Of a DNA stretch of 26,412 nucleotides, positions 132 through 23,542 are shown one piece after another. Source of the DNA: a virus (lineage: Duplodnaviria; Heunggongvirae; Uroviricota; Caudoviricetes); IMG/VR virus record IMGVR_UViG_2529292890_000002, positions 1 through 26,412 of that record; one strand, 5' to 3'. Below the pieces are notes generated by a model. That model saw only the letters and a list, made by a program, of their open reading frames with translations. It was not told where the DNA came from and made no database searches. Position 1 is the first letter of the stretch. Every line of letters begins with the position of its first letter. The translations under genes were made by a program, and so were the position numbers.

Positions 132-1112
132 TCACACCGCCAGCCCGCCGCCAAGAGGGTTTAACGTTACTGCGTGTTGCAGATAATCGGGGGCCAGGTG
201 AGCATAAACCATCGTCTGTTGTATGCTGGCGTGCCCAAGAATTTGCTGTAACGCAATAATGTTTCCCCCGTTCATCATGAACCAGCTTGCGAACGTATGC
301 CGAAGCACATGCGTGGCCTGCCCGCGTGGTAAATCGGGCTTAACCTGTCTGAGCCGTTCGCAGAAGTTTTCATAATCAACTTTGAACAGTGGCCCGGTGT
401 CGCTGGTCTTGATCTCTTTCTCCAGTTCTTCCGATATCGGAACCGTGCGTTTTTTCCCGTTTTTGGTCTTAAGGAACGTTACGCGCCCGTGATTTACCTG
501 CTCGCCTCGCAGCGTGCTTCCTTCGCCCCAGCGTGCGCCGGTGCTGAGGCATAGCAGTGCCACGCGTCGATCGTCGCCGGTCAGAGTATCCAGCAATTTG
601 CTGATCTCAGATTTAGCGAGATAAGTCATAGCTGGCGGCGCTTCTTTCAGTGGTTCCAGACCCTTACAGGGGTTTTCCTTCCTGAACTCTTCCAGCTTTA
701 TCAACGTGCTGAACATCCCGGATAAGCGGTAAATATCACGGTTGATCGTTGCTGCGCTGATACCGTCCTCCAGCCGTTGGCTTCGGTGCTGTGCAATCAT
801 TCGCTTGTTCAGTCGGTTAACGGCTGGATCACCCAGCGCCCTGATTGTTTTATTCAGGTGCCGCTTTTCAATCTCGCCATTTTCCTGAGTCTGTCCATAC
901 AGCAGCCACCAGGTATCTAACAACTCGCTTAAGGTGCGGCGGTCAACGCTCGCGCCCAGCCATTCCTTTTTGTCGGCGTTGGCTAATACATAACGCTCAA
1001 AAAGAACTGCCTCTTGTTTCTTCTCAAATCGCCTGCGGATACGTTTTCCGTTACGTCCGCGCGGCCATACGTCTACTTCATATTGACCACCTTCGAGCTT
1101 CTTAATCGACAT
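132..1112 (-). CDS. int: Tyrosine-type site-specific integrase (P2 Int-like)
   Basis: 326 aa ORF with ATG start and upstream GGAGGG SD; C-terminal catalytic region HVLRHTFAS...GHASIQQTMVYAHL (H-x-x-R, His, Tyr) and upstream TGARWGE arginine box; sits at the prophage end next to the repressor. Confidence 0.9.
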   Translation of the reverse strand: MSIKKLEGGQYEVDVWPRGRNGKRIRRRFEKKQEAVLFERYVLANADKKEWLGASVDRRTLSELLDTWWLLYGQTQENGEIEKRHLNKTIRALGDPAVNRLNKRMIAQHRSQRLEDGISAATINRDIYRLSGMFSTLIKLEEFRKENPCKGLEPLKEAPPAMTYLAKSEISKLLDTLTGDDRRVALLCLSTGARWGEGSTLRGEQVNHGRVTFLKTKNGKKRTVPISEELEKEIKTSDTGPLFKVDYENFCERLRQVKPDLPRGQATHVLRHTFASWFMMNGGNIIALQQILGHASIQQTMVYAHLAPDYLQHAVTLNPLGGGLAV

Positions 1113-1502: not shown

Positions 1503-1577
1503 AACATTCTCCTTAAGGGTGGTAATCTCTACCATTAGCAACCGCCAATATAAGCAGTTACAAGCCGAAATAAGCGC
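1492..1577. promoter_or_regulatory. Divergent early control region between C and cox with direct repeats (candidate operators / Cox boxes)
   Basis: 11-bp direct repeat ATCTCTACCAT at 1492-1502 and 1525-1535 (one copy contains the C start codon); ATAAGCA/ATAAGCG repeats at 1550 and 1571, 21 bp apart. Confidence 0.4.
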
Positions 1578-1602
1578 CTAGCGCCAACGGGGATTATGAC
1601 AC

Positions 1603-3502: not shown

Positions 3503-4474
3503 ATGATCCGCCCGTTCATCAAATGGGCAGGGGGTAAAACCCGTGTCCTCCCTGACCTGCTGCCGCATCTTCCTAAAGCTGACTGCCTGATCGAACCGTT
3601 CGTAGGCGGCGCATCGGTATTTCTGGCGACTGAATACCGCCGCTATGTGCTGGCTGATATCAACCAGGATCTTATTAACCTGTATCGGGAAGTCACCCGT
3701 TACCCGGACTTAGTGATCGATGCTGCCCGCGAATTGTTCAACAGTAAGAATAGCCCGCAGGGATACAACGAAGTCCGTGCCGCGTTCAATAAGCAGGTGG
3801 GTACGGTAAAAAGCGGTGGGTTGCGTTATGGCGCTGAAATGGCGTGCATTATGCGCGCTGCTCAATTCCTGTATCTGAATCGCCACGGTTATAACGGCTT
3901 ATGTCGATACAGCCGGAAGACCGGCTTTAACGTGCCGTTTGGCAAGTATAAGAGCGTCTACTTTCCTGAAAATGAAATCCGCCTGTTTTCCGAAAAGGCC
4001 AACGATACAAAAGCAATATTTCTTTGTGCGCCGTTCCAGCGTTCTCTACAGGTCGTCACGGGTGGCGATGTTCTCGTTTACTGCGATCCGCCTTACCTGC
4101 CTGAAAGCAAAACAGCCGATTTTACCCAATACCACACCGAACCATTCACGGAAGGCAACCACCGCCAGTTAGTCCAGGCACTGCTGGAAGTTAACCGTAA
4201 GCATGGCGTGAAGGTCGTCATTTCCAACAGCGATACCGAAGCCACCCGCGCGATTTATCAGCCCTTCAAGATGCACGAAATCAGCGTGCAACGTTCCATC
4301 AGCACCGACAAAGACAACCGCCAGAAGGCCAAAGAAGTGATCGGCGTGCTGCCTGTCTGCGACTGCTGCGGGCGTTACGGCGGCGGTTGCCCTGATTGTG
4401 GCGCCGTGATGGGTGATGCGACTTACAACGCGATGGTTGCGGCGGGCGCGTTTGACGATCTGGAGGCTTTTTAA
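3503..4474 (+). CDS. dam: DNA adenine methyltransferase (Dam-like, N6-adenine class) with Cys-rich C-terminal extension
   Basis: N-terminal FIKWAGGK, then EPFVGGASVF (AdoMet-binding) and catalytic DPPY; C-terminal CDCCGRYGGGCPDCG extension. Confidence 0.85.
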   Translation: MIRPFIKWAGGKTRVLPDLLPHLPKADCLIEPFVGGASVFLATEYRRYVLADINQDLINLYREVTRYPDLVIDAARELFNSKNSPQGYNEVRAAFNKQVGTVKSGGLRYGAEMACIMRAAQFLYLNRHGYNGLCRYSRKTGFNVPFGKYKSVYFPENEIRLFSEKANDTKAIFLCAPFQRSLQVVTGGDVLVYCDPPYLPESKTADFTQYHTEPFTEGNHRQLVQALLEVNRKHGVKVVISNSDTEATRAIYQPFKMHEISVQRSISTDKDNRQKAKEVIGVLPVCDCCGRYGGGCPDCGAVMGDATYNAMVAAGAFDDLEAF

Positions 4475-4653
4475 TGAATCTTATAGACGCCTGGATCGTT
4501 GAAATCATAAGCGTGAGTCGTGGCGAGATTGTGCCGTATTGGTTGGTTGAGGCGAAAGTAACAGCTTATGGAAGGGAGTCAATAACCACAATTCTGAAGA
4601 AATCAGAAGAGGAAGCCAAAGCCGTTAAAGTAGGGGATGTAGTTCAAATATGA
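4474..4653 (+). CDS. Hypothetical 59-aa protein, coupled between dam and A
   Basis: ATG overlaps Dam stop (TAATG) and its stop overlaps the A start (ATGA); translation MNLIDAWIVEIISV...DVVQI read by hand; not in the ORF track. Confidence 0.4.
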   Translation: MNLIDAWIVEIISVSRGEIVPYWLVEAKVTAYGRESITTILKKSEEEAKAVKVGDVVQI

Positions 4654-7037
4654 CCACGGAAACCCGTGGCCGTCGCGCCCCTTCTCCACCTCCACCGTAT
4701 CCGGGTAGCACTGACAATGCTATCCCTTACGCTTATGGCGGGAACAAACCATACCAGCCGATTGGCGTTGATGTAGCGCCGGGGCTGGATGGTTTCGACT
4801 ATCTCACGCCGGATGGCACGCGTAAGCATATTGCGTTCAGTGAACTGGTAGCGGAAGACGAAAAGCCAGAACGCAGTAAGCTGCTGCGTCGCCGTCTGGC
4901 TTCACTTCCGCAGTATGTTCGCCGCCACTTTGCCGCGAAGCTTGATGCGCTGGACGCGAAAGACCGTAAAGCGGCAGATCACTGGCTGGTTAATACCTTT
5001 GAGCGCCACGTATTAACTCGTATTGATAACGTAAACAGCATTTACCAGCCTGACAGCGTGATGCCCGGTATTCTGCTGCCTATCCGCGATCAGCTTTTCC
5101 GTATTCTCTGGGCGGGAAAAAAAGAGTTAAAAAGACTGGCTTATACGCTTGCCGATATCTTTACGAGCGAGTTTATACGCGAGTCCGATCACCAGTTGGC
5201 GCACACCGGCGATCCAGAGTTTGCGGCACTTTCTGGCTATGGTCGTATTGCGTCGCTGGCGGTGCATCTGAAAACGCCGATTCCCGGCTGGACAGCGTAT
5301 TGCAATGAAGAACTTGAAGCGGAGGACGCGTTACGCGCGGTTCTTCGTCTTGAGTCACCGCAGTGGTGGTTAAACCGCCTGCGTCGTATCCATGCCCGCT
5401 GGCGCGAGCATTTGATGATCGCTACGGGATACGTACAGGTGAAAGCCTCTCCGTACAGTAGCGCACCGTGTCTTACGGAATGGCTGGCCCAGAAAAAGGC
5501 TAACCGTGAATACCTCAAGGCTATGGAACTGGAGGATCAGGACACGGGCGAACGCATTTCACTGATCGATAAAGTCGCCGGCAGTGTTGCCAATCCGGCC
5601 AATCGTCGCCGCGAACTCATGACGAGAATGCGCGGATTTGAAGAACTGGCGAAGCTGGAAGGGCTGGCCGGTGACTTCTACACGCTGACAGCGCCTTCCC
5701 GTTATCACTCTATGCAGCACAATGGTCTTCGCAATAATAAATACCGTGGTGCGTCGCCGCGCGAGACGCAGCAGTATCTTTGCAAAGTCTGGGCGAGAAC
5801 CCGCGCCGCGTGGAAGAGAAAAGGTATCCGGGTCTTTGGCTTTCGTGTGGTGGAACCGCACCACGATGCAACGCCGCACTGGCATTTGCTTCTTTTTATG
5901 CGCCCGGAATGCGTTGAGCAGGCGCGTGAAATCTTCCGTAAACATGCCCTGAAAGAAGACGGCAACGAACCGGGAGCGCAGGAAAACCGCTTTCAGGTTG
6001 TGCCGATCGATGAAGCCCACGGCAGCGCTACCGGCTATATAGCGAAATACATTTCGAAGAATATTGACGGCTTCGCGTTGGATGGCGAGAAGGACGATGA
6101 AACCGGGGAAGATCTGAAAGAAATGTCTCTCCGCGTTAGCGCGTGGGCGTCGCGCTGGTCTATTCGCCAGTTTCAGCAGATCGGCGGTGCGCCGGTCACG
6201 GTATATCGCGAGCTTCGCCGCTTGGGCGATCGCGAACTGGTGTTACACCCTGAACTGGAAACCGCCCGGCAGGCCGCTAACGGTGGCGAATGGGATAACT
6301 ACGTATTAGCCCAGGGTGGCCCGTTGGTTGAGCGCGATAAGCTGCGCATCCGTCTGAATTATGAAACCACTGAAAACGGCAACGCCTACGGCGATAACGT
6401 CCAGCGAATCACCGGTATCTATTGCCCGCTTACGGGTAATAACTCTTTGATCTTCACCCGCACCACTCAATACAAAATCGTGCCGAAGCGTCAGAGCGCT
6501 GACGGTGTGGCCGTTGACGTTGGTTTTTCAGGCGGCAGCGCCGCCCCTCGGAGTTCTGTCAATAACTGTACGCGGGATCCCGCGGCAGGTGCTGACGGTG
6601 TTGAACATGCCGCCAGCGAAGCTAAAGAACAGTCAGGAATGACTGTGCCAGCTGAGGGCGTGACGGTGAATTTTGATGCGCTTTCACGGCAGGAAAAGCG
6701 AGAACTGGCGCAGCGGCTTAGTGACGATGTGCGAAGTAAGCGTAAAAAACGGCCACTGGAACGGGAAGAGGGGGCCGGGCTATCCGTGAAAGAGCAGCAG
6801 ATCAGTGAACTGCTGGCGCTGCGTGGGATTGATGCCAGCGCCGGAATGGTCAGATCGATGATTGCGGGTGCGTCAGTGGCGTGCGGCGATCTTGTTATGA
6901 CCGTGCAGGACGGGCGGCTGGTATCGCGCAACCGCGCAGCGTCCGGGCTGGATAAGCTACCGTCGCAGGTGATGGCGGCGAAGCAAAAAACAAGTGATCT
7001 TGTGAACAGGATGAAAGCAGCATTTTCGCGGAACTAA
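4650..7037 (+). CDS. A: Replication initiation protein A (rolling-circle nicking initiator, P2 gpA-like)
   Basis: 795 aa; HUH-type motif HWHLLLF and paired catalytic tyrosines YIAKYISK (Y-x-x-K-Y); sits between the early genes and the cargo/cos region as in P2. Confidence 0.9.
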   Translation: MTTETRGRRAPSPPPPYPGSTDNAIPYAYGGNKPYQPIGVDVAPGLDGFDYLTPDGTRKHIAFSELVAEDEKPERSKLLRRRLASLPQYVRRHFAAKLDALDAKDRKAADHWLVNTFERHVLTRIDNVNSIYQPDSVMPGILLPIRDQLFRILWAGKKELKRLAYTLADIFTSEFIRESDHQLAHTGDPEFAALSGYGRIASLAVHLKTPIPGWTAYCNEELEAEDALRAVLRLESPQWWLNRLRRIHARWREHLMIATGYVQVKASPYSSAPCLTEWLAQKKANREYLKAMELEDQDTGERISLIDKVAGSVANPANRRRELMTRMRGFEELAKLEGLAGDFYTLTAPSRYHSMQHNGLRNNKYRGASPRETQQYLCKVWARTRAAWKRKGIRVFGFRVVEPHHDATPHWHLLLFMRPECVEQAREIFRKHALKEDGNEPGAQENRFQVVPIDEAHGSATGYIAKYISKNIDGFALDGEKDDETGEDLKEMSLRVSAWASRWSIRQFQQIGGAPVTVYRELRRLGDRELVLHPELETARQAANGGEWDNYVLAQGGPLVERDKLRIRLNYETTENGNAYGDNVQRITGIYCPLTGNNSLIFTRTTQYKIVPKRQSADGVAVDVGFSGGSAAPRSSVNNCTRDPAAGADGVEHAASEAKEQSGMTVPAEGVTVNFDALSRQEKRELAQRLSDDVRSKRKKRPLEREEGAGLSVKEQQISELLALRGIDASAGMVRSMIAGASVACGDLVMTVQDGRLVSRNRAASGLDKLPSQVMAAKQKTSDLVNRMKAAFSRN

Positions 7038-7195: not shown

Positions 7196-8194
7196 ATGAC
7201 GAACCATAATCAGATGAGTCAGATATATTCTAAATTCGGCCGGGCCGGGTTTAATCTCTCTTACATCCGCAGGTTGTTGCCTGACTGGTGGGATGAGAAG
7301 CTTGCTGACACCCCATCAGGGCGCCAGTATGCGTGCCTGCACCTTGCGCGTATGTTTAGCATTCTCCCGGATAGCCTGAAAGATGGTAGCGAAGGGGTAT
7401 GCTTTAATTTTGGTGGAAACCATAAATATAAACATCGCCAAAATGTAGCCGAGAACGATTTAGATATCGCTACTGCTGTTGCCTATACTGCGGCCGGTAT
7501 TGTCGCGTCTAATTTCAAAGTCCCTTACGATGCCAGTGCAGTGCTGGATCCTTTGGCTATAAGAACCCAGATTCTTACTAAGGAATCATGGGTATCGCTA
7601 GATAGCCTGGTAACATACTGTCATTCGATTGGCATTCCTGTTGTTTATCTAAAATGCTTCCCTCAAGCTGCCAAAAAAATGGCCGGGCTGGCGCTAATGA
7701 GTCACGGGCGCCCGGTGATTGTTCTTACTCAGCCTCAGAAATATGGCTATATGCTGTTTGATCTCGCGCATGAGTTAGGCCATATCGCCAGAGGGCATCT
7801 GAACGCAGAAAACGGGCAGTGCCATATTGATGCAAAAATTGAGAATGCTTCGACGGACAACGTAGAGAAAGAAGCCAACGAATTCGCCTTCCAGGTCATT
7901 TCGGGGCAGAAGTCTTTACGTATCGTTCCTACCGCTGGCAGGTTGAATGGGCCTGGTTTGGCTCGCGCGGCTCAAAAGTTTGGAAGTGATAATCACATTG
8001 ACCCGACTCACATCGCTTTAAATTATGGTTTCGCGCAGAACTGCTGGGGCGCTGCTGTTAACGCTGTTAAAGCACTCTGTGCTGGTGAAGACTCAGATCA
8101 GGATTTTGTGAGGGCCATGATGAAAAGCGGGATGGATTTAGAAAATATCCACGAAGATGATCTTAAGGTTTTAGAAAATCTAATCGGGGAATAA
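7196..8194 (+). CDS. Cargo protein with ImmA/IrrE-type (M78-like) HEXXH metallopeptidase motif; N-terminal ~180 aa of unknown function
   Basis: Strong SD AGGAGG 5 nt before ATG; motif MLFDLAHELGHIARGHL; AT-rich by eye; own upstream promoter-like sequence. Confidence 0.6.
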   Translation: MTNHNQMSQIYSKFGRAGFNLSYIRRLLPDWWDEKLADTPSGRQYACLHLARMFSILPDSLKDGSEGVCFNFGGNHKYKHRQNVAENDLDIATAVAYTAAGIVASNFKVPYDASAVLDPLAIRTQILTKESWVSLDSLVTYCHSIGIPVVYLKCFPQAAKKMAGLALMSHGRPVIVLTQPQKYGYMLFDLAHELGHIARGHLNAENGQCHIDAKIENASTDNVEKEANEFAFQVISGQKSLRIVPTAGRLNGPGLARAAQKFGSDNHIDPTHIALNYGFAQNCWGAAVNAVKALCAGEDSDQDFVRAMMKSGMDLENIHEDDLKVLENLIGE

Positions 8195-8197
8195 TAA

Positions 8198-8836
8198 GTG
8201 ATTGTTCTTTCTGACAATGATGTCATTTTGAAGCTGGCCCAGTGCAATCTGTTATCACAACTGCCAGTGGTTTTTAACCAACCCCCCGAACAGATCTTCA
8301 TTAACCCTGCTGCTCGTTTTCAGCTTCTGCCGAAAAATCCTGATAAAGCAATCAGGAAGTGTGGTAGCCAGGTTGTTTACGAGCAGGTGGGAGCCTTCAT
8401 TGAATCTGTACAGGATATCCCGGAAGTTCAGGACTCACAGCTTATTGAGCTTTTGGGGAGTGTGCCCGGAATTGATGTAGGCGAACAGCTATTGCTTGCC
8501 TCGTGCATAGAGAACCCAGAAGCCATTTTCATGACTGGTGATCGCCGCTGTTTGACTGCAATTGTTGCAAACCAACCGGCCCTTTCCGTGATTCATCAGC
8601 GTTTACTGGATGCAGTTGTTACCTTTGAGTCGTCACTTTTGTTATGTGTCCACGGTACAGATCAGGCTCAAGTTTATGAAAATTTGGTGAGCAATCCTAA
8701 ACCTGACGGCATGTTGAAATTGGCTCTTTCAAACGCTGGCGCTGCAATGTGCGAATGTATCTTTTCCCATACTCGTGAGTTTTACGATTACCTTGCCTTC
8801 AAAGATCGACTTCCTGATCGGGAGTGGGGAAGGTAA
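8198..8836 (+). CDS. Cargo partner protein of unknown function (possible PIN-like fold, speculative)
   Basis: GTG start 3 nt after the upstream stop with GGGGA upstream; 212 aa; N-terminal IVLSDNDVILKL plus later acidic residues (IDVGEQ, FMTGDRR) loosely resemble PIN nucleases; followed by a terminator. Confidence 0.5.
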   Translation: MIVLSDNDVILKLAQCNLLSQLPVVFNQPPEQIFINPAARFQLLPKNPDKAIRKCGSQVVYEQVGAFIESVQDIPEVQDSQLIELLGSVPGIDVGEQLLLASCIENPEAIFMTGDRRCLTAIVANQPALSVIHQRLLDAVVTFESSLLLCVHGTDQAQVYENLVSNPKPDGMLKLALSNAGAAMCECIFSHTREFYDYLAFKDRLPDREWGR

Positions 8837-9002: not shown

Positions 9003-9021
9003 GGCGAGGCGGGGGAATGAG
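9003..9021. other. Probable cos (cohesive-end) site
   Basis: GGCGAGGCGGGGGAATGAG matches the start of the P2 cos sequence (GGCGAGGCGGGGAAAGCAC, recalled from memory); position between the cargo and Q is as in P2. Confidence 0.5.
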
Positions 9022-9231
9022 CGCGCGCTGAGGGGTGGGATAGGGTCGGTATTATCTGCGCCGATTTTCGCGCCGCTGCGCCTCGCTGCTGCGTCGTTTT
9101 CGGTTCGCTGTGGTGGTTTGAGGCAAAAGAAAAGCCCCTGCCAGCGGGCTGCTGAGGGGCTTACGTGCGGTGTGGTCAGTTGCGGCCGTGCTGGCCGTTC
9201 CACGGTGGTGGTGGGTGTGTCCGGGCTGGCG

Positions 9232-12040: not shown

Positions 12041-12058
12041 TGTCGCCTGAGTCCGACA
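12041..12058. promoter_or_regulatory. TGT-N12-ACA dyad (Ogr/Delta-type late activator site) in the P/O divergent region
   Basis: TGT CGCCTGAGTCCG ACA, part of the inverted repeat TTGTCG-N8-CGACAA, about 100 bp upstream of the O start. Confidence 0.5.
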
Positions 12059-14122: not shown

Positions 14123-14971
14123 ATGTTGACACCTGCTCAACAACATTTTAACCGCGTGATGGCTGAACGCCGCCACACCAGCCGTGAGCCGTCGCAGCTT
14201 GAAATGACGGCCTACGAAACCATGCTTCACCGCCTGCGACTGGATAAAGCCCGTTTGAGCCGTGTCCAGTCCCAGAAGGCTAAAGCGGATTTAAAACGCG
14301 AACTGCTGCCGGATTACCAGCCGTGGATCGAAGGCGTACTTACGGCAGATTCCGGCCAGTCTGACGACGTGTTAACCACTATCATGATCTGGTGTTGTGA
14401 CTGCGGAAACATCGCCGAAGCCCTGCGAATTGGTCAGTACGTGTTGCGCCATAAGTTGCCGATGCCGGATCAGTATCGCCGCACCACCGCCACCGTACTG
14501 GTGGAAGAAATTTGCGATCCCGTCCTAGCTGCATTCAAAGCTAACCCAGCTGTTGCGCCGGTCGCCGCTGACCTGCTGGAAGCGTTACGGGGCTTAACCC
14601 TGAATGAAGATATGCCGGATGAGGTGCGCTCAAAGCTGCTTAAGGCGCTGGGGTATACGCTGCGCCTGACTGACAACGTTGAATCGCTTACCGCTGCGGT
14701 TGAATACCTGCGCCAGGCGGCAGTGTTGAACCCGAAAAAAGCAGGCGTAACCCGTGATATTGAGCTTCTGCAACGTGCGCTTAAGAAGTCCGGGCAACCT
14801 GCTGACGGTGACGGCGCAGACGCCAAGCCAGAAGCAAACAGCACCGAAACCCAGACGGCAACGCTGCCAGCCCAGCCAAAAGCGAAGCGGGAAACCAAAA
14901 AGCCCGCCGCTAAAAGCAAGCCGGCAGCGAAGAAAAGAACCACGACAGCCCGCCAGAAGGCGGCTTCATAA
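14123..14971 (+). CDS. M: Terminase small / endonuclease subunit (P2 gpM-like)
   Basis: 282 aa; KRELLPDYQPWIEGVL and DMPDEVRSKL resemble P2 gpM as recalled, including a Lys/Ala/Pro-rich basic C-terminal tail. Confidence 0.85.
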   Translation: MLTPAQQHFNRVMAERRHTSREPSQLEMTAYETMLHRLRLDKARLSRVQSQKAKADLKRELLPDYQPWIEGVLTADSGQSDDVLTTIMIWCCDCGNIAEALRIGQYVLRHKLPMPDQYRRTTATVLVEEICDPVLAAFKANPAVAPVAADLLEALRGLTLNEDMPDEVRSKLLKALGYTLRLTDNVESLTAAVEYLRQAAVLNPKKAGVTRDIELLQRALKKSGQPADGDGADAKPEANSTETQTATLPAQPKAKRETKKPAAKSKPAAKKRTTTARQKAAS

Positions 14972-15073
14972 CCGAACGTGCCCCCGCGCACCCAGGCGGC
15001 ACGGCAGGCGAAAACAGGCAACACCGCGTCTTCGTCCTGCCGTCCACCGCCTGACTTATACGGAGTAGAGATC

Positions 15074-15802: not shown

Positions 15803-16192
15803 ATGGTCGGTGAGCCAATTTCCGGCGCTGCCGCTGCAACGGTGACAATTACAGGCGTCACATTTGCCAGCATGTTATCAGGCACTGACGCGGGCGTTTT
15901 TGTCGGCGCTTTTGCCGGGGCTGTGGTGTATGTGCTTTCCGCTGCTGAGTTAAGCCGGTTCGCTCAAATTGGGTATTTCATTGCTTCTTTTTTGATTGGT
16001 GTACTCGCGGCAGATATGACAACCGGGTTTATCACGTTGGCGATCGGTAAGTACCTCCCTGACGGCATCACGGTGGGTAAATCTATTGGGGCAACCGTCG
16101 CCGCCGCGCTGGGGGTTTATGTACTTCTCATGCTCAGAAAAATAAACCCAGGGCGTTTATTTTCGGGGGGTGGCGATGGTAACGCTAAATGA
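15803..16192 (+). CDS. Holin-like membrane protein
   Basis: 129 aa with several hydrophobic helices, directly upstream of the endolysin in the late operon. Confidence 0.55.
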   Translation: MVGEPISGAAAATVTITGVTFASMLSGTDAGVFVGAFAGAVVYVLSAAELSRFAQIGYFIASFLIGVLAADMTTGFITLAIGKYLPDGITVGKSIGATVAAALGVYVLLMLRKINPGRLFSGGGDGNAK

Positions 16193-16496
16193 AGTTCTCC
16201 TTATCGTGAATGCAATTACATGCGCAGTAATCGCGGTAACTTTGGGTACTTATCAGCGCAATGGGGCAAAGCATAAGCGAATGGCTGCTTTGTTTGCCTG
16301 GGTGCTCATTGTTGCGTGCGGTTCAGTCACCATCCTGATCGTTACCGGAAGGTATTCAACCGCAAACTTTGCGGAGACGGCGATCAATATGGCGCTCTGT
16401 GTGGCTGTTTTATCGGCCAAAGGCAACGTCATGAAGATTGTTAACAGATCGGACGTAATGAGCATAAGCAAACGAGGTGCCCGTAATGGCAAATAA
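16176..16496 (+). CDS. Second holin/antiholin-like membrane protein
   Basis: About 106 aa from ATG 16176 (alternative GTG at 16170); two to three hydrophobic helices; overlaps both neighbours. Confidence 0.5.
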   Translation: MVTLNEVLLIVNAITCAVIAVTLGTYQRNGAKHKRMAALFAWVLIVACGSVTILIVTGRYSTANFAETAINMALCVAVLSAKGNVMKIVNRSDVMSISKRGARNGK

Positions 16497-16878
16497 CTTT
16501 AAATTCAGTCAGCGGAGTGAAAATAACCTGCGTGGTGTGCATCCCGATCTGGTGAAGGTAGTCAGGCTGGCGCTGGAGCTTTCGCCGGTTGATTTCGGCA
16601 TTACGGAAGGTTTGCGTACTGTCGAACGTCAAAAGCAACTGGTTGCGGAAGGTAAAAGCCAGACTATGAACAGCAGGCATATTTCCGGCCATGCCGTTGA
16701 TGTTTTCGCTTATCCAACGCCTGCCGGTTCATGGGACTGGCAGTATTACCAGCAGATTTCCCAGGCGTTTAAGCAGGCGGGTAAAAATCTGGGCATTCCG
16801 GTGGAGTGGGGCGGAGACTGGAAGACGCTTAAAGACGGGCCACATTTCCAGTTACCTTATGCCGATTACCCTGCCTGA
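16486..16878 (+). CDS. Endolysin, M15-family zinc peptidase type (L-alanyl-D-glutamate endopeptidase-like)
   Basis: ATG 16486 with GAGG 8 nt upstream; metal-binding pattern SRHISGHAVDV ... DGPHFQL (H-x6-D ... H) typical of VanY/M15 peptidases. Confidence 0.75.
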   Translation: MANNFKFSQRSENNLRGVHPDLVKVVRLALELSPVDFGITEGLRTVERQKQLVAEGKSQTMNSRHISGHAVDVFAYPTPAGSWDWQYYQQISQAFKQAGKNLGIPVEWGGDWKTLKDGPHFQLPYADYPA

Positions 16879-16895
16879 TGTGCTGTGCAGGTCAT

Positions 16896-16970
16896 TTTTA
16901 ATTGTGCTGGCCGTGCGTATCGAGCGCGGTCATTTTTGACAGTGCTCCAGCACGTCCGGTATTGACGGTG
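16896..16970. repeat. Copy 1 of a ~70-bp direct repeat, with internal sub-repeats GGTCATTTTT-N-GTGCT and a GTGCT-CC-AGCAC dyad
   Basis: Hand alignment to 22981-23055: a 21-bp identical core GTGCTGGCCGTGCGTATCGAG plus about 46 further positions at roughly 70% identity (about 80% overall). Confidence 0.7.
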
Positions 16971-16992
16971 CGAGCTGGCGAGAGGTTTTGAA

Positions 16993-17526
16993 ATGGGGCT
17001 GTTTTCACGCTGGAAAGTGATCGTTTGTCTTGTGCTGGCCGCTGCTGCTGTCTGGGGTTTTAGCCACTGGCGTTACAGTGCCGGTTATGGTGATGCCGAT
17101 CAGCACTGGCGTGAAGAGTGGGCGCAACGTGATGCACGCGACGCCACTGCGCTGGCACAAAGGCAGGCTAAGGCCAGGGCAGAAGAACAACGCCGACAAG
17201 GTGAAATTGATGCGATCAGAAAACAAGCCAGCCAGCAGCTTGCTGGCGTGCAGGCTGATGCCGATCGTGCCCGTGCTGCTTCTCGTGGGCTGCACGACAG
17301 GGCCGACAAACTCGCCAGGCAACTGGCAGACCGTGAACGCGCCTGCGGTGCCGGAACTCCCGGCAGAAGCGAGGCAGAAACCAGCGGCGCCGTACTGCTC
17401 GCCGACCTGTTCCGCCGCGCTGACGATCGAGCGGGGCAACTGGCAAAAGATGCTGATGAAGCAAGAGCCAGAGGATTAGCCTGTGAGGCTGCATATGATG
17501 CGGTTAAGTCCGGGAGGGATAAGTAA
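16993..17526 (+). CDS. i-spanin (Rz / LysB-like)
   Basis: N-terminal transmembrane anchor KVIVCLVLAAAAVWGF then a charged, Ala/Arg/Gln-rich coiled-coil-like periplasmic region; GAGAGG SD; follows the endolysin. Confidence 0.7.
   Translation: MGLFSRWKVIVCLVLAAAAVWGFSHWRYSAGYGDADQHWREEWAQRDARDATALAQRQAKARAEEQRRQGEIDAIRKQASQQLAGVQADADRARAASRGLHDRADKLARQLADRERACGAGTPGRSEAETSGAVLLADLFRRADDRAGQLAKDADEARARGLACEAAYDAVKSGRDK
17210..17479 (+). CDS. o-spanin (Rz1 / LysC-like lipoprotein) embedded in the +1 frame of the i-spanin gene
   Basis: ATG 17210 with AAGGTG SD; signal peptide ending in lipobox LLVGC; Pro-rich mature part; alternative start at 17258. Confidence 0.6.
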   Translation: MRSENKPASSLLACRLMPIVPVLLLVGCTTGPTNSPGNWQTVNAPAVPELPAEARQKPAAPYCSPTCSAALTIERGNWQKMLMKQEPED

Positions 17527-18020
17527 TGCTTAAACCCGATTTGCTGCGCCAGATGATAAGCCAGCATGTGCCCTGGCTGCGCGAGAATCCCGATAATCTG
17601 GCGGTTTACCTGCGTAAAGGCCGTATGGTCAGCACCGGCCAGCGTGCTGCTGCGTTTGAGTATCGCTATACGCTGGAAGTGCTGGTGATGGATTACCCTG
17701 AATCTCTGGATACTATCAGTGTGCCGGTGCTGGCATGGGCGCGCTTATATCAGCCTGATCTGTTGTTTAACCCGGACAGGCAGCAGAACGGGATAACATT
17801 CGAAGCCGATATCCTGAGTAACAGCACGATGGACGTGCTGATCCAGATTCAGACTGATGAAGCGGTGATCGTCACCCGTGAAGATGGCGAGATCGTCACC
17901 CGTCACCGTGCTGACCCTGCGCCGGGGCCAGAAATTGGCGCGTGGTCACTGGTATTTGTTGATGAGGTCAGCGGCGAAACATGGCAGGACAACAAACCGA
18001 TCCCCTCTTCCAGCAGTTAG
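17526..18020 (+). CDS. R: Tail completion protein R (P2 gpR-like)
   Basis: 164 aa; N-terminus MLKPDLLRQ and VPVLAW...QPD resemble P2 gpR as recalled; start overlaps the spanin stop (TAATG). Confidence 0.8.
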   Translation: MLKPDLLRQMISQHVPWLRENPDNLAVYLRKGRMVSTGQRAAAFEYRYTLEVLVMDYPESLDTISVPVLAWARLYQPDLLFNPDRQQNGITFEADILSNSTMDVLIQIQTDEAVIVTREDGEIVTRHRADPAPGPEIGAWSLVFVDEVSGETWQDNKPIPSSSS

Positions 18021-21286: not shown

Positions 21287-22358
21287 ATATTATGCCGTGC
21301 TAACCAATGTGGGCGCAGCGAAACTGGCAAATGCCACGGCATTGGGTGCGCAGGTTGAGATCACCCAGATGGCTGTAGGCGATGGTAACGGCGCATTGCC
21401 GACGCCGAACCCGGCACAAACGGCGCTGGTTCATGAGTTGCGCCGCGCGCCACTCAATACCCTGAGCATTGATCCGAACAACGCCAACCAGATTATTGCC
21501 GAACAGGTGATCCACGAAGACGTGGGCGGGTGGTGGATCCGTGAAATCGGCTTATTCGATAAAGACGGCGATATGATTGCCGTAGCCAACTGCGCGGAAA
21601 CCTATAAGCCGCAGTTGCAGGAAGGTAGCGGGCGCGTTCAGATTGTCCGCATGATCCTGATAGTCAGCAGCACCGCCGCCGTGACTCTGAAAATTGACCC
21701 TTCGGTAGTGCTGGCAACGCGCCAGTATGTTGATGATCAGATAATCCAGGTGAAAGCCTATGTTGATCAGCAACTGGCGGCGCATGTGGCTGCGGCTGAT
21801 CCTCATGCGCAATATTTGCTTGAGTCGGATTTTGATAAATTTTTCCCGGTAGGTTTTCCGCTTCCGTGGCCGCAGGCAACGCCGCCAGGCGGCTGGCTTA
21901 AATGCAATGGTGCAACGTTCGATAAGGTCAAATATCCGAAGCTGGCGACGGCTTACCCTTCTGGCGTATTACCAGATTTGCGCGGTGAGTTTTTGAGAGG
22001 TTGGGATGATGGGCGTGGGGTTGATGTAAACCGAGTATTGTTAAGTTCCCAGAGTGAGGATTTAAAGGGCCATCGGCATGAGTCCTATTTCTATGCGGGG
22101 ATCAGCAGAAATGAAGTGCCTTTAACTAGCTTGGATAGTTCGTGTGAAATGCTAACATTAAGCTCAACAACCAATGCACTCGCACCAACGGATATAGATA
22201 CCAGCGGCACTCTTATCGGTAATGATGATTATAACTGTCTGGCCGAAGGTAATAAAAACAACAAACGAACTGCAACAGGATTAAGTTCCACCATTGTAGG
22301 TGGAGGCGAAACTCGTCCGCGAAACGTATCATTTAATTATATCGTGAGGGCTGCATAA
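21276..22358 (+). CDS. H: Tail fibre protein H (short, about 360 aa) with AT-rich distal part
   Basis: Start at GTG 21276 (GGAG 7 nt upstream; track's first codon is TTG at 21255); N-terminus ATKYYAVLTNVGAAKLANA...MAVGDGNG resembles the conserved P2 gpH N-terminus as recalled. Confidence 0.75.
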   Translation: MATKYYAVLTNVGAAKLANATALGAQVEITQMAVGDGNGALPTPNPAQTALVHELRRAPLNTLSIDPNNANQIIAEQVIHEDVGGWWIREIGLFDKDGDMIAVANCAETYKPQLQEGSGRVQIVRMILIVSSTAAVTLKIDPSVVLATRQYVDDQIIQVKAYVDQQLAAHVAAADPHAQYLLESDFDKFFPVGFPLPWPQATPPGGWLKCNGATFDKVKYPKLATAYPSGVLPDLRGEFLRGWDDGRGVDVNRVLLSSQSEDLKGHRHESYFYAGISRNEVPLTSLDSSCEMLTLSSTTNALAPTDIDTSGTLIGNDDYNCLAEGNKNNKRTATGLSSTIVGGGETRPRNVSFNYIVRAA

Positions 22359-22954
22359 TGACGCAGGCAGAATTAAACAGCGAACTTATTGCTACTGTGG
22401 CAGGTGATATCACGGTATTCAATTACGATGGGGAAACACGCGAATATTTAACTTCAATGGTTGAATATCTGGCGGAAGGTGTTGGCCTTCCTGCAAATTC
22501 ATGCACCGATGCGCCAAGCGAAAGTAAAGAGGGATTTGCTATTTGTCGAACAGCAGATTTTACCGCATGGGAATACGTCGCCGATCACCGTGGTGAAACG
22601 GTATACAGCACTAAAACAGGCGAATCGGAGATCGTTTCTTTGCCTGGCGATTACCCGGAGGGTACTACCACGCTGGCACCTTCGACACCTTACGATACGT
22701 GGAACGGTAGCGAGTGGGTAACAGATACGGAAACGCAGCACGCGGCGGACGTGGAAGCGGCGGAGCAACAGAAAGCTGCGCTACTCCTTGAGGCGCAGGC
22801 AACGATCAGTCTATGGCAGACGGAGCTACAGTTAGGCATTATCAGCGATGAAGATAAAGCCAGCCTGATCGCCTGGATGAACTACATCAAAGCCGTGCAG
22901 GCGGTGGATACCTCGAAAGCGCCGGATATCACCTGGCCGGATAAGCCGGAATAA
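22358..22954 (+). CDS. G: Tail fibre assembly protein G (Tfa-like)
   Basis: 198 aa; start overlaps the H stop (TAATG); directly downstream of the fibre gene. Confidence 0.8.
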   Translation: MTQAELNSELIATVAGDITVFNYDGETREYLTSMVEYLAEGVGLPANSCTDAPSESKEGFAICRTADFTAWEYVADHRGETVYSTKTGESEIVSLPGDYPEGTTTLAPSTPYDTWNGSEWVTDTETQHAADVEAAEQQKAALLLEAQATISLWQTELQLGIISDEDKASLIAWMNYIKAVQAVDTSKAPDITWPDKPE

Positions 22955-22980
22955 GTTTTCATTCCGGCACGCATGGCCGG

Positions 22981-23055
22981 TTCTAACCGTGCTGGCCGTG
23001 CGTATCGAGTACAGTCATTTTTAACGGTGCTGTAGCACGGTCAGTTATGGCGGTG
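22981..23055. repeat. Copy 2 of the ~70-bp direct repeat, in the convergent G/U intergenic region
   Basis: Aligns to 16896-16970 (identical 21-bp core GTGCTGGCCGTGCGTATCGAG; GTGCT-GT-AGCAC dyad). Confidence 0.7.
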
Positions 23056-23071
23056 TGTTCCGGAAGACGAA

Positions 23072-23093
23072 GCGGGCAAAGGCCCGCTTTTCT
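23072..23093 (+). terminator. Rho-independent terminator at the convergent G/U junction (likely bidirectional)
   Basis: Stem GCGGGC, loop AAAG, stem GCCCGC, then TTTTCT; A-rich GAAGACGAA on the 5' side. Confidence 0.6.
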
Positions 23094-23542
23094 TATATCG
23101 AAAGGTTGGTTTTCACCAGAGAGAAGAGATCGTCGATGGTCGTTTCGGCCAGCTTTTCCCGTATGTCCTCGCTTACCCGTTTCAGGTTGAGCGTAAAATC
23201 AATTTTCTTTGCCTTCCCGTCCTTAAAAAACTCCGTCCGGTTTTGTGTGATCTGCTCAATTACATACATGCCGTAGATCCTGCCCGTGCCTTCTATCAGG
23301 GGCCACGGGCGCCCGGAAAAAGCCATAGTTTCCAGCATGACAAGCGACACATCACCGCCGCTTATTTCGGGGTACAGCGTGCCGCTGAGTACGAACGGTT
23401 CTTCATCTGCGCCGATGAACTGATAGCGCGGGGATTTCCCCACGCGATCGTTTTTGACGTGCCGCCAGGAGTTGGTTTTATTCGCACTCTGGTAAGGCGT
23501 GGTTTGCAGTGAAAAGGGGAACATCCCCAGAATCATCATCAT
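23093..23542 (-). CDS. U: Tail protein U (P2 gpU-like)
   Basis: 149 aa beginning MMMILGMFPFSLQTTPYQ, with SGTLYPEISGG and GMYVIEQI resembling P2 gpU as recalled; directly downstream of the tape-measure gene on the minus strand. Confidence 0.85.
   Translation of the reverse strand: MMMILGMFPFSLQTTPYQSANKTNSWRHVKNDRVGKSPRYQFIGADEEPFVLSGTLYPEISGGDVSLVMLETMAFSGRPWPLIEGTGRIYGMYVIEQITQNRTEFFKDGKAKKIDFTLNLKRVSEDIREKLAETTIDDLFSLVKTNLSI

What the first reader, a model, noticed from the sequence alone, without database searches (positions are those of the whole stretch)
16879..16992. ~70-bp direct repeat present twice (16896-16970 and 22981-23055), each made of GGTCATTTTT-N-GTGCT sub-units with a GTGCT-NN-AGCAC dyad
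Seen: hand alignment gives an identical 21-mer GTGCTGGCCGTGCGTATCGAG followed by about 46 positions at roughly 70% identity. Copy 1 fills an unusually long 113-bp gap between the endolysin and the spanin genes; copy 2 sits right after G. Within copy 1 the unit GGTCATTTTTAATTGTGCT recurs as GGTCATTTTTGACAGTGCT 38 bp later. Neither copy contains the TGT-N12-ACA late-activator dyad found upstream of O and V, so these are not canonical Ogr-type late promoters. Inference: they could be binding-site arrays for another regulator, transcript-processing or attenuation elements, or recombination scars bracketing the lysB-to-G block.
Basis: seen in the sequence. Interest (0 to 1): 0.55.

Follow-up and report, generated by a model that had tools for sequence, protein, structure and literature searches.

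The report
Conserved palindromic repeat cassettes in P2-like prophages
The two repeats are real and belong to an apparently undescribed family of non-coding cassettes, built from short imperfect palindromes, that sit at gene-module joints in some P2-like prophages and are kept by selection, though what they do is still unproven.

Summary
In detail: 16896-16970 and 22981-23055 match at 59 of 75 positions without gaps, against 41-43 in shuffled sequence.

The window is a P2-like prophage closest to Salmonella phages SEN4/SEN5. Each copy is a head-to-tail array of three degenerate ~23-nt imperfect palindromes (GTCA-N4-5-TGAC-N-GTGCTG plus a short palindrome).

The same cassette occurs in more than 150 related prophage loci in Enterobacterales, at fixed joints:
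- between endolysin and lysB;
- between the tail-fibre assembly gene and U, in either orientation;
- upstream of a 227-aa adenine methyltransferase (80 of 80 homologues).

Single units lie inside replication gene A beside the origin, and near cos.

The endolysin|lysB copy is a ~113-bp insertion into an ancestrally overlapping stop/start. A 45-nt core is 87% conserved where neighbouring third codon positions are 53% conserved. The two copies within one genome do not homogenise. The mosaic breakpoints lie on the 5' side of the cassette.

It is not an Ogr-type or sigma-70 promoter, not coding, not in Rfam, and not needed for the origin.

My best guess (about 0.35) is a portable boundary and leader element acting on transcripts. 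A protein-binding array and a REP-like selfish repeat remain open. I rate it a new variant of a known kind.

The parts
16879..16992 (+). Class A cassette (my label): the whole endolysin|lysB intergenic gap. It holds three units, the conserved core and the lysB translation-initiation region.
   Evidence: (nhmmer 90 bits).
16890..16908 (+). Unit 1 of copy 1: GGTCATTTTTAATTGTGCT.
16904..16953 (+). Conserved core of copy 1 (GTGCTGGCC-GTGCGT-ATCGAG-CGCG-GTCATTTTT-GACA-GTGCT-CC-AGCAC). It includes the 21-mer shared with copy 2 at 16904-16924.
   Evidence: per-column information content; selection on the homologous core.
16908..16937 (+). Terminator-like hairpin TGGCCGTGC/GCGCGGTCA followed by TTTTT. 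It is well formed only in the endolysin|lysB class.
   Evidence: I checked by hand on the sequences that the stem is not conserved in the other classes.
16928..16953 (+). Unit 2 of copy 1 with the 12-bp dyad GTGCTCCAGCAC (16942-16953).
16954..16992 (+). Unit 3 of copy 1 (GTCCGGTATTGACGGTG) followed by GCGAGCTGGCGAGAGGTTTTGAA, the Shine-Dalgarno region of lysB. This stretch is homologous to the leader of the methyltransferase and of a small ORF in SEN5.
22961..23068 (+). Class B cassette: it lies between the stop of the tail-fibre assembly gene (22954) and the terminator. Units are at 22975, 23014 and 23039, the dyad GTGCTGTAGCAC is at 23027-23038, and a decayed leader remnant CCGGAAGACGAAG is at 23060-23072.
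   Evidence: nhmmer 112 bits; RNA fold -50.6 kcal/mol, z -4.96.
23069..23095 (+). Intrinsic terminator hairpin GAAGCGGGCAAAGGCCCGCTTT plus T-run, closing the V-to-G operon. Its T-run overlaps the stop codon of the convergent gene U (23093-23095, minus strand).
6630..6662 (+). Single unit inside replication gene A: CAGTCAGGAATGACTGTGCCAGCTGAGGGCG, about 75 nt 3' of the origin nick-site homologue. It is part of a 33-nt in-frame indel relative to phiT5282H.
9167..9198 (+). Solitary unit GGTCAGTTGCGGCCGTGCTGGCCGT between the cos-like site and the stop of portal gene Q.
   Evidence: (families D9 and D16).

Best explanation
What it is (high confidence, about 0.9). The two repeats are two positional members of one family of modular non-coding cassettes. 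The family is carried by a subset of P2-like (Peduoviridae) prophages of Enterobacterales and by a few integrase/primase islands.

A cassette is a head-to-tail array of 1-6 degenerate ~23-nt imperfect palindromes: (CAC)-N-GTCA-N4-5-TGAC-N-GTG(C/T)TG, followed by a short palindrome such as TGGCCA, CTGCAG(CAC), GGTACC or CAGCTG. Spacers between units are 1-22 nt. A nearly invariant 45-nt core runs GTGYTGGCC-N5-7-ATCGAG-N4-GTCATTTTT-RRC-N-GTGCT-N-CAG.

How it most likely works (inferred, about 0.35). It is a portable boundary and leader element that acts on the transcript crossing it.
- At endolysin|lysB it was inserted into an ancestral overlapping stop/start (ATGA). It breaks translational coupling and gives lysB its own Shine-Dalgarno region about 25 nt after the last unit.
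- It places a hairpin cluster with U-rich loops in the late mRNA. These would be points for partial termination or RNase processing, and would protect the ends of the RNA.
- At the tfa|U joint the same cassette is the 3'-UTR form, in front of the terminator between two convergent late operons.
- Because the core is conserved while its 5' neighbours vary, it also serves as a homology patch where endolysin, tail-fibre and accessory modules are exchanged.

Shown here: anatomy, distribution, the insertion, selection, the position of the mosaic joints, and the absence of a promoter. Inferred: the RNA-level action and the role in recombination.
For: Reality and anatomy.

Family and positions:
- A pattern scan of viral contigs gave 76 loci, and a scan of genomes gave about 20 Enterobacterales hits plus about 8 chance hits, close to the roughly 6.5 I estimated from the pattern's length and the collection's size.
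- All 26 loci with lysB at least 86% identical carry the array. All loci with lysB at most 79% identical have an overlapping ATGA junction and no array, including L143, which has the window-type endolysin end.
- 80 of 80 methyltransferase homologues (68-100% amino-acid identity) carry an array directly upstream.

Leader architecture: the last unit ends 15-34 nt before the start codon in 81 of 93 distinct loci, and a Shine-Dalgarno-like motif is present in 90 of 93. A homologous leader (GAGAGGTTTAGAGATG or CAGCTGAGGACGAAAGAGAATG) precedes lysB, the methyltransferase, a small ORF in SEN5 and another gene in L096.

Selection: in 62 loci whose methyltransferase is under 80% identical to that of SEN5, codon positions 1, 2 and 3 are 0.78, 0.86 and 0.53 identical, while the 45-nt core is 0.87 identical. 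One endolysin|lysB array is 82 of 82 identical where lysB third positions are 91% identical. Copies within a genome do not homogenise (0.7865 against 0.7872, permutation p = 0.94).

Mosaic joints: homology to SEN5 starts at window 16892 and 22962. Among 92 arrays there are 31 left-flank families against 13 right-flank families, and the six largest right-flank families each have 3-8 left-flank families. Some E. coli relatives have an invertase gene in place of tfa to the left of the same cassette.

Hairpin potential: copy 2 folds to -50.6 kcal/mol (z = -4.96), and copy 1 has a terminator-like hairpin plus T5.

Module-number variants that fit slippage between units: L112, L125, L133 and L040.
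Against: There is no convincing covariation. RNAalifold on 83 distinct sequences gives only a weak 6-bp helix (-3.5). Hand checks show frequent C.A mismatches in the unit stems on the sense strand, and the outer stem of the tfa|U class is not kept.

Folding z-scores range from +0.3 to -5 among members.

The conservation is in the primary sequence, including would-be loop bases (ATCGAG, TTTTT). That points to a sequence-specific partner, not a generic hairpin.

Orientation relative to local transcription is not uniform. In phages whose U is 78-80% identical, the tfa|U array is inverted (45-82 bits on the U-sense strand against 17-36 on the other). More distant phages have a single unit lying between the terminator and the U stop. 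The unit near Q lies on the strand opposite to Q.

The essential genes R and S lie downstream of copy 1 with no promoter before 18627, so any termination at copy 1 must be weak.
Confidence: 0.35

Rival explanations
1. The cassette is a DNA-level array of binding sites. Each unit (GTCA-N4-5-TGAC dyad plus GTGCTG) and the invariant ATCGAG block would be bound by a sequence-specific protein. Candidates are the replication endonuclease A, another phage protein, or a host factor such as DNA gyrase (as with REP/BIME-2 elements or the strong gyrase site of phage Mu). The array would then organise replication, supercoiling or a transcription roadblock at module boundaries.
For: The primary sequence is strongly conserved without compensatory change, including in would-be loop bases.

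The units are direct repeats of a dyad.

The cassette occurs in both orientations at the convergent tfa|U joint, where positive supercoils would accumulate.

A unit lies 75 nt from the origin nick inside gene A. It is present in 25 of 27 genomes that have an array downstream of A and in 4 of 95 genomes without one (Fisher p = 1e-19, not corrected for phylogeny).
Against: No candidate binding protein was identified.

Spacing between units (25, 36, 40 and 46 nt) does not follow the helical repeat.

In my sample of P2-like contigs with the same nick sequence, 92 of 93 have no array, so the array is not part of origin function.

The early operator region shares no 8-mer cluster with the arrays, which argues against the immunity repressor or Cox.

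The islands that carry the cassette next to an integrase have a Toprim primase in the stretch read, not a gene A.
Confidence: 0.3
2. The cassette is a selfish REP/REPIN-like repeat. The palindromic units would be copied to new sites within and between P2-like elements, possibly through single-stranded DNA exposed during rolling-circle replication, with the HUH endonuclease A acting like a RAYT transposase. The core would be conserved because the copying machinery needs it, not because the phage does.
For: The endolysin|lysB array is an insertion into a formerly tight junction.

A unit is inserted in frame inside gene A, as part of a 33-nt indel.

Unit number varies between relatives.

The family also occurs in satellite-like islands.

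Units cluster in and just after the gene for the only HUH enzyme, much as RAYT genes are flanked by their REPs (the RAYT comparison is from my own knowledge).
Against: Only a handful of positional classes exist, each inherited vertically across genera, so transposition must be very rare.

I noticed no terminal inverted repeats common to the classes and made no test for target-site duplications.

All 80 methyltransferase loci keep the array even at 68% protein identity, which looks like a benefit to the phage.

The nick-site sequence shows no significant similarity to the array (p = 0.15-0.5).
Confidence: 0.15
3. Copy 1 is simply an intrinsic terminator or attenuator that lowers expression of lysB, R and S relative to the head and lysis genes. 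Copy 2 would then be a redundant terminator.
For: The hairpin at 16908-16932 has 9 pairs and is followed by TTTTT. The three natural variants of its 3' arm keep pairing, through G-U or U-A.
Against: The stem is not conserved in the tfa|U or methyltransferase classes, although the sequence is (hand check).

The essential tail genes R and S depend on read-through.

Copy 2 is already followed by a strong canonical terminator.

The number of terminator-like hits in the region is no higher than in shuffles (9 against 7.5 +/- 2.8).
Confidence: 0.1
4. The cassette is a promoter for a regulator other than Ogr, or for sigma-70, driving lysB, the methyltransferase, and a short RNA at the tfa|U joint.
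For: It always lies directly 5' of a gene or of a terminator. Copy 1 contains TTGACA.
Against: The promoter scan finds no sigma-70 promoter in either copy. No -10 element is conserved at a fixed distance in any class (hand check). There is no TGT-N12-ACA dyad.
Confidence: 0.05
5. The repeats are neutral recombination scars left when the lysB-to-G block was acquired.
For: The two copies are direct repeats that flank lysB to G, and homology to SEN5 breaks at both.
Against: The core is as conserved as second codon positions. The copies occur independently in relatives. Class-specific differences are stable across 15 genomes.
Confidence: 0.02

Closest known systems
PeSL cassettes of T4-type phages (PMC2839356, PMC4122927)
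   Same: Both are short conserved non-coding cassettes repeated within a phage genome. Both sit at the borders of variable genes, and homology breakpoints between related phages coincide with them. PeSLs are proposed to mediate modular shuffling.
   Different: PeSLs are defined by an early promoter plus a terminator stem-loop. Here no promoter is detectable, the cassette is an array of palindromic units, and it lies inside late and early operons of a temperate P2-like phage.
REP/BIME (REPIN) elements of enterobacterial chromosomes
   Same: Both consist of imperfect ~20-40-nt palindromic units in extragenic arrays of variable unit number. Both lie between cistrons or in 3' UTRs, occur in either orientation, and are conserved across genera. 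REP functions include mRNA stabilisation, attenuation and gyrase binding (from my own knowledge).
   Different: This family is not dispersed in host chromosomes. Every hit whose context I examined lies in a P2-like prophage or next to an integrase gene. The units are head-to-tail, not alternating. There is no GTAG motif and no RAYT gene. The sequence is unrelated.
Start-associated sequences (SAS/ESAS) of Cluster K mycobacteriophages (PMC3203893)
   Same: Both are conserved motifs lying immediately upstream of the translation starts of several unrelated genes. In both, an upstream inverted-repeat part is joined to a part containing the Shine-Dalgarno sequence, and the function is unproven.
   Different: SAS is a 13-bp motif present at many genes in each genome. 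Here there are 2-4 copies per genome, each 60-200 nt, and some copies have no downstream gene.
Origin iterons and the 'bind' locus of rolling-circle replicons (for example pMV158), and lambda ori iterons inside gene O (from my own knowledge)
   Same: An imperfect-palindrome unit lies inside the initiator gene, about 75 nt 3' of the nick site, and its copy number varies (0, 1 or 2).
   Different: In my ori-anchored sample of P2-like contigs with the same nick sequence, 89 of 93 have no such unit. The large arrays lie 10 and 16 kb from the origin. No binding has been shown.
RNase III processing sites of phage T7 (from my own knowledge)
   Same: Both are a family of similar intergenic hairpins repeated along one phage genome inside polycistronic transcripts.
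   Different: The T7 sites are defined by structure and by mapped cleavage. Here the structure is not conserved and no cleavage data exist.

Membership tests
P2 Ogr/Delta-dependent late promoter | A TGT-N12-ACA dyad centred near -55, upstream of a -10 element. | tested here: not met
   The dyad occurs only at 12041, 17761, 18627 and 19349, and none lies in 16879-16992 or 22955-23095.
Sigma-70 promoter | -35 and -10 hexamers spaced 16-18 nt apart, conserved among members. | tested here: not met
   The scan finds none in either copy. TTGACA in copy 1 is followed at 18 nt by TATTGA, which lacks the -7 T. No -10 is conserved across classes.
Intrinsic terminator | A G+C-rich hairpin followed directly by a U-run, conserved as a structure. 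| tested here: inconclusive
   It is met by sequence in copy 1 (16908-16932 plus TTTTT). The stem is not maintained in the tfa|U or methyltransferase classes, and the genes downstream of copy 1 need read-through.
Structured RNA family (Rfam) | A match to a curated covariance model at its gathering score. | tested here: not met
   No gathering-score match anywhere in the window. The best sub-threshold hits have E = 0.48 (SorX) and E >= 1.7.
Structured RNA (generic) | Base pairs supported by compensatory changes. | tested here: not met
   The RNAalifold consensus is a single weak 6-bp helix (-3.5). My column-pair scan was dominated by G-T noise. The outer stem of the tfa|U class is not kept.
REP/BIME | Imperfect palindromic units in extragenic arrays. 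| tested here: met
REP/BIME | Tens to hundreds of copies dispersed in the host chromosome, with alternating orientation within arrays and an associated RAYT gene. | tested here: not met
   About 20 genuine hits among 185,579 species genomes; every one whose context I examined lies in a P2-like prophage or next to an integrase gene. E. coli genomes that have any hold a median of 2 places. The units are all direct.
PeSL-type mobile regulatory cassette | Sits at homology breakpoints flanking variable genes. | tested here: met
PeSL-type mobile regulatory cassette | Contains an early promoter plus a terminator stem-loop. | tested here: not met
   No promoter was found.
Origin iterons / initiator binding locus | Repeated sites next to the nick site that are present wherever that origin type is used. 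| tested here: not met
   The unit is adjacent to the nick site in the window. It is absent from 89 of 93 randomly sampled P2-like contigs with the same nick sequence, and absent from P2 itself.
Origin iterons / initiator binding locus | Bound by the initiator protein. | not testable with these tools
   This needs EMSA or footprinting with protein A.
Stoperator-type repressor sites | The same motif is also present at the early operator. | tested here: not met
   No cluster of shared 8-mers lies between the arrays and the early control region between the repressor and cox genes (1541-1603); the only such cluster in 1100-1700 is none, and the nearest are chance-sized hits at 133 and 784.
Type III toxI-like or CRISPR-like repeat arrays | Near-identical tandem repeats next to a toxN or cas gene. 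| tested here: not met
   The units are only about 60-70% alike (my estimate from the sequences). The neighbours are lysB, a methyltransferase and gpU.
Protein-coding sequence | An ORF conserved in frame and length. | tested here: not met
   The minus-strand micro-ORF MT(V/A)LDTHGQH... changes frame and length between classes, from 11 to 254 aa of unrelated sequence. No plus-strand ORF is conserved.

The most novel reading that the evidence does not exclude
The units are recognition elements for the phage's own HUH rolling-circle endonuclease A. They could be iteron-like accessory sites that tie replication to the expression of downstream cassettes. Or they could be REPIN-like hairpins that A copies to new sites in the way a RAYT transposase does. 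That would make this the first REP/RAYT-type system carried by, and confined to, a phage lineage and its satellites. It rests on four things: the unit inside gene A 75 nt from the nick site, its near-perfect co-occurrence with arrays just downstream of A, the insertion polymorphisms, and the presence of the family in satellite-like islands.
Probability: 0.1. Interest if true: 0.8.

Novelty: new variant of a known kind. Interest (0 to 1): 0.55.

Why it matters
P2-like phages are among the best-studied temperate phages, and their regulatory map (Pe/Pc, four Ogr-dependent late promoters, cos, ori) is treated as essentially complete.

This work adds a non-coding element that is as conserved as second codon positions. 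It recurs at two to four fixed joints per genome and marks the borders where lysis, tail-fibre and accessory modules are swapped.

If it controls transcript processing or translation, it adds a post-transcriptional layer to late gene expression and lysis timing. If it is a protein-binding or A-dependent element, it links rolling-circle replication to genome organisation or to the spread of repeats.

In either case it gives a concrete sequence handle for studying how phage mosaicism is generated. It is also a practical marker for module boundaries when engineering these prophages.

Tried and rejected
1. Mimic of the origin nick site. By eye the core (ATCGAG-N4-GTCA-T5-AAC) resembled CTCGGAG-TTCT-GTCA-AT-AAC of the origin. 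Smith-Waterman alignment against shuffles gave p = 0.15-0.5, so I dropped it.

2. A small gene on the minus strand. ATGAC (the reverse complement of GTCAT) opens MT(V/A)LDTHGQH(G/N/S)*, and some variable sites looked synonymous. But the frame and length are not conserved between classes.

3. A conserved RNA structure. I tried RNAalifold, a column-pair scan (too noisy because G-T pairs are so easily formed by chance) and inspection of the outer stem of the tfa|U class. None gave consistent compensatory changes.

4. Rfam, at gathering and at permissive thresholds: nothing.

5. A promoter, either sigma-70 or Ogr-type: nothing.

6. Gene conversion between the two copies in one genome: none. The 21-mer identity in this window is just the variant this lineage carries.

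7. Immunity repressor or Cox sites: no shared words with the early control region.

8. An essential part of the origin: rejected, because the units and arrays are absent from most P2-like contigs with the same nick sequence and from P2 itself.

9. Crossover sites for the tail-fibre invertase. The cassette abuts an invertase gene in some E. coli prophages, but it is present without any invertase in the window and in most relatives.

10. Literature. Six exact sequence strings and two keyword searches found no description of this element.

11. Fixed orientation relative to the origin strand, as a single-strand initiation signal would require. This is weakened by the inverted arrays in phages whose U is 78-80% identical.
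Full report
**Context**

The window is most of a P2-like prophage. On the plus strand it carries the following genes:
- an integrase at 132-1112 (minus strand), an early region, and a D12 methyltransferase at 3503-4474;
- replication endonuclease A at 4650-7037;
- an M78-peptidase cassette;
- a cos-like site near 9005;
- portal and terminase genes on the minus strand;
- head genes, two holin-like genes, and an M15-peptidase endolysin at 16477-16878;
- a DUF2514 lysB/Rz-like gene at 16993-17526;
- R, S, V, W, J, I, H, and a tail-fibre assembly gene at 22358-22954.

After these come U (23093-23542) and the tape-measure gene, both on the minus strand and convergent with the tail-fibre genes.

The closest phages in the collection are Salmonella phages SEN4/SEN5 (Senquatrovirus), at 96% identity over the matching parts. 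An IMG/VR contig (L071/L110) is identical to the window at both repeats. An E. coli chromosome holds a 100% match to the second repeat inside a related prophage next to fieF/pfkA.

**The observation**

It is correct. The two stretches form the longest direct repeat in the window, at 75 nt, ungapped and 79% identical. That is 59 of 75 matches, against 41-43 in shuffled windows.

Each copy in fact has three units. Copy 2 is followed by a canonical terminator at 23069-23090, whose T-run overlaps the U stop codon.

TGT-N12-ACA dyads are present upstream of O/P and upstream of V, but not in the repeats.

**It is a family**

Similarity searches found the element in SEN4/SEN5, Enterobacter phage phiT5282H, Klebsiella phage 3LV2017 and its relatives, and Salmonella phages SI7/SW3/SW5.

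A pattern scan found 76 viral contigs. A looser pattern found about 20 genuine hits in genomes of Citrobacter, Enterobacter, Kosakonia, Kluyvera, Yokenella, Salmonella, Erwinia, Izhakiella, Mixta and Dryocola. It also gave about 8 hits in unrelated phyla, close to the roughly 6.5 I estimated from the pattern's length and the size of the collection. In E. coli, 38 of 5426 complete genomes carry it.

I then collected loci by neighbouring protein, not by the pattern, so the samples were not biased by the pattern itself. I gave the positional classes my own labels (A, B, B', C, D).

- **Class A, endolysin|lysB.** All 26 loci with lysB at least 86% identical have the array. All loci with lysB at most 79% identical have the endolysin stop overlapping the lysB start (ATGA) and no array. 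One of these, L143, has the same endolysin 3' end as the window. Class A is therefore a ~113-bp insertion into a formerly coupled junction.
- **Class B, tfa|U.** Loci with U at least 93% identical have the array in the tfa-sense orientation, followed by the terminator. In the 78-80% clade (class B') the array is in the opposite orientation, abuts the U stop, and has no separate terminator (45-82 bits on the U-sense strand against 17-36 on the other). More distant phages have an ordinary terminator plus one unit-like palindrome between it and the U stop.
- **Class C, upstream of a methyltransferase.** Eighty of 80 homologues (68-100% identity) of a 227-aa D12-like adenine methyltransferase carry an array directly upstream, usually just after gene A. 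None has an array downstream. SEN5 has arrays of classes A, B and C. The window lacks class C and has an M78-peptidase cassette in that position.
- **Class D, next to an integrase.** Four genomes have the array plus a hairpin beside the 3' end of a 326-aa integrase, in an island that encodes a Toprim primase.

**Anatomy**

The cassette is a head-to-tail array of 1-6 units. Each unit is (CAC)-N-GTCA-N4-5-TGAC-N-GTG(C/T)TG followed by a short palindrome (TGGCCA, CTGCAG(CAC), GGTACC or CAGCTG). Units are separated by spacers such as ATACATCGAGNAC or GGATTCCGGCAAATAC.

In the gene-anchored alignment the most informative columns are GTG.TGGCC, ATCGAG, GTCATTTTT and GTGCT.CAG.

Unit number varies between close relatives in ways that fit slippage between repeats. 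L112 lacks a 39-bp module. L125 and L133 lack the segment between two GACAGTGC repeats. L040 has a full tandem duplication.

**Selection, not scars or homogenisation**

For 62 loci whose methyltransferase is under 80% identical to that of SEN5, codon positions 1, 2 and 3 are 78%, 86% and 53% identical. The adjacent 45-nt core is 87% identical.

A class A array can be 82 of 82 identical where lysB third positions are 91% identical.

Across 15 genomes that hold both class A and class B, copies from the same genome are no more alike than copies from different genomes (0.7865 against 0.7872; permutation p = 0.94). The resemblance between the two copies is therefore kept by constraint on shared positions, not by gene conversion.

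**Mosaic joints**

Homology between the window and SEN5 begins at 16892 and at 22962, which is at the left edge of each cassette. Three different endolysin ends precede class A. Different tfa genes, an invertase gene or an invertase remnant precede class B.

Over 92 arrays there are 31 left-flank families and 13 right-flank families. The six largest right-flank families each have 3-8 left-flank families. The cassette therefore travels with the DNA on its 3' side, and the exchange point is on its 5' side.

**Leader architecture**

Where a gene follows, the last unit ends 15-34 nt before the start codon in 81 of 93 distinct loci. A Shine-Dalgarno-like motif is present in 90 of 93.

The stretch between the last unit and the ATG is homologous in front of lysB, the methyltransferase, a small ORF that sits inside the SEN5 array, and another gene in L096. 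Class B retains a decayed version (CCGGAAGACGAAG) in front of its terminator.

**Link to gene A**

The window's homologue of the P2 origin nick site is at about 6545-6575. A unit lies 75 nt downstream of it, at 6630-6662. By my count this unit matches the last unit of the SI7 array at 26 of 29 positions.

The number of units at this spot is 0, 1 or 2 in different phages. In the window it is part of a 33-nt in-frame indel relative to phiT5282H.

The unit is present in 25 of 27 genomes with an array downstream of A, and in 4 of 95 without one. Fisher's test gives p = 1e-19, but I did not correct it for phylogeny.

In an ori-anchored sample of P2-like contigs with the same nick sequence, 89 of 93 have neither a unit nor an array, and P2 itself has none. 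So it is not part of basic origin function. The nick site itself shows no significant similarity to the array.

**What it is not**

- It is not a sigma-70 or Ogr-type promoter.
- It is not a known RNA family.
- It is not coding.
- It is not a repressor or Cox site shared with the early region.

**Mechanism**

Two lines of evidence pull in different directions.

Some features suggest an element that acts on the transcript, as a boundary, leader or trailer:
- it sits tightly 5' of start codons;
- it shares one leader with several unrelated genes;
- it was inserted into a translationally coupled junction;
- it takes a 3'-UTR position at operon ends;
- it has hairpin potential: copy 2 folds to -50.6 kcal/mol (z = -5), and copy 1 has a terminator-like hairpin plus T5.

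Other features suggest a sequence-specific partner, possibly on DNA:
- there is no covariation;
- the unit stems carry sense-strand C.A mismatches;
- would-be loop bases are conserved;
- folding z-scores vary widely;
- orientation relative to local transcription is mixed.

I rank the explanations as follows:
- transcript-level boundary/leader cassette that doubles as a homology patch for module exchange: 0.35;
- DNA-binding array: 0.30;
- REP-like selfish repeat, possibly dependent on A: 0.15;
- plain attenuator: 0.10;
- promoter: 0.05;
- neutral scar: 0.02.

**Comparison with known elements, and novelty**

The nearest known kinds are listed below.
- PeSL cassettes of T4-type phages (PMC2839356, PMC4122927) have the same genomic behaviour, but no promoter is found here.
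- REP/BIME elements have the same unit logic, but this family is confined to phages and its units are all direct.
- SAS/ESAS of Cluster K mycobacteriophages (PMC3203893) are also start-associated, but differ in size and copy number.
- Origin iterons resemble the unit inside the initiator gene, but that unit is dispensable.

No paper in the searchable library contains the sequence or describes the element.

I rate it a new variant of a known kind, of moderate interest (0.55).

Noticed in passing
window 6545-6575: GCCCCTCGGAGTTCTGTCAATAACTGTACG is the homologue of the P2 origin nick site (GCGCCTCG^GAGTCCTGTCAATAACTG; nick annotated at P2 position 29892). It lies inside gene A and is followed by the 14-bp palindrome CGCGGGATCCCGCG.
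   Followed up: partly
window 6630-6662: One repeat unit lies inside the coding sequence of gene A, as part of a 33-nt in-frame indel relative to phiT5282H. The number of units at this spot is 0, 1 or 2 in relatives, and its presence tracks the presence of an array downstream of A (25 of 27 against 4 of 95).
   Followed up: yes
window 9167-9198 (also SEN5 159-198): A solitary unit, GGTCAGTTGCGGCCGTGCTGGCCGT, lies between a cos-like sequence (GGCGAGGCGGGGGAATGAG, about 9005-9023) and the stop of portal gene Q. It is on the strand opposite to Q.
   Followed up: partly
window 7196-8836: Downstream of gene A the window carries a Peptidase_M78 (ImmA/IrrE-like) gene plus a 212-aa ORF with no Pfam match. 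Relatives carry the array plus a 227-aa adenine methyltransferase at this spot, so it looks like an accessory-gene swap at a hot spot.
   Followed up: no
window 22955-23542 and beyond: The tail genes read here (tape measure and U; in SEN5 the whole sheath-to-U block) are on the opposite strand to the tail-fibre genes, so G and U converge. In SEN5 the D gene sits separately and divergent from FI. From memory, this block is co-directional in P2.
   Followed up: partly
L314 1928-5026 (E. coli NZ_LT883142) and SEN5 14933-15005: Some E. coli relatives have an invertible tail-fibre segment with a recombinase (invertase) gene whose annotated end runs into the first bases of the tfa|U cassette. SEN5 keeps only a remnant of that gene's 3' end.
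   Followed up: partly
L085 930-1135; also L088, L097 and L101: The same cassette plus a CCGGCC..GGCCGG hairpin lies next to the 3' end of a 326-aa integrase, in an island that encodes an 889-aa Toprim primase. Upstream is an AT-rich stretch with GTAAC(C) repeats that looks like an attachment region. In L101 a fused P2-family capsid gene and a second integrase lie nearby, which suggests a satellite.
   Followed up: partly
SEN5 (L001) 30942-31365: An 82-aa ORF sits inside the methyltransferase-linked array, between unit 1 and the rest. Its start uses the same leader (GAGGTTTAGAGGATG) as lysB in relatives. SI7 has a similar small ORF between gene A and its array.
   Followed up: partly
window 15803-16878: The lysis module has two holin-family genes (Phage_holin_8 and Phage_holin_3_7) and an M15 peptidase endolysin. 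SEN5 and the E. coli prophage in NZ_OY754834 have a lambda-type holin and a lysozyme in front of the same cassette and the same lysB.
   Followed up: partly
window 1553-1580: ATATAAGC and AATAAGCG are direct repeats about 20 bp apart, between the repressor gene and cox. This resembles the two-direct-repeat operator of the P2 C repressor. A similar pair (ATAAGC..AATAAG) occurs by coincidence in the last codons of the tail-fibre assembly gene (22941-22955).
   Followed up: no
window 17761-17778: There is an extra TGT-N12-ACA match (TGTTGTTTAACCCGGACA) inside gene R. The number of such matches in the window is what chance predicts (4 observed against 4.65 expected).
   Followed up: no
L040 5429-5560: One viral contig has a complete tandem duplication of the two-unit module. 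This shows that the arrays grow by unequal exchange or slippage.
   Followed up: no
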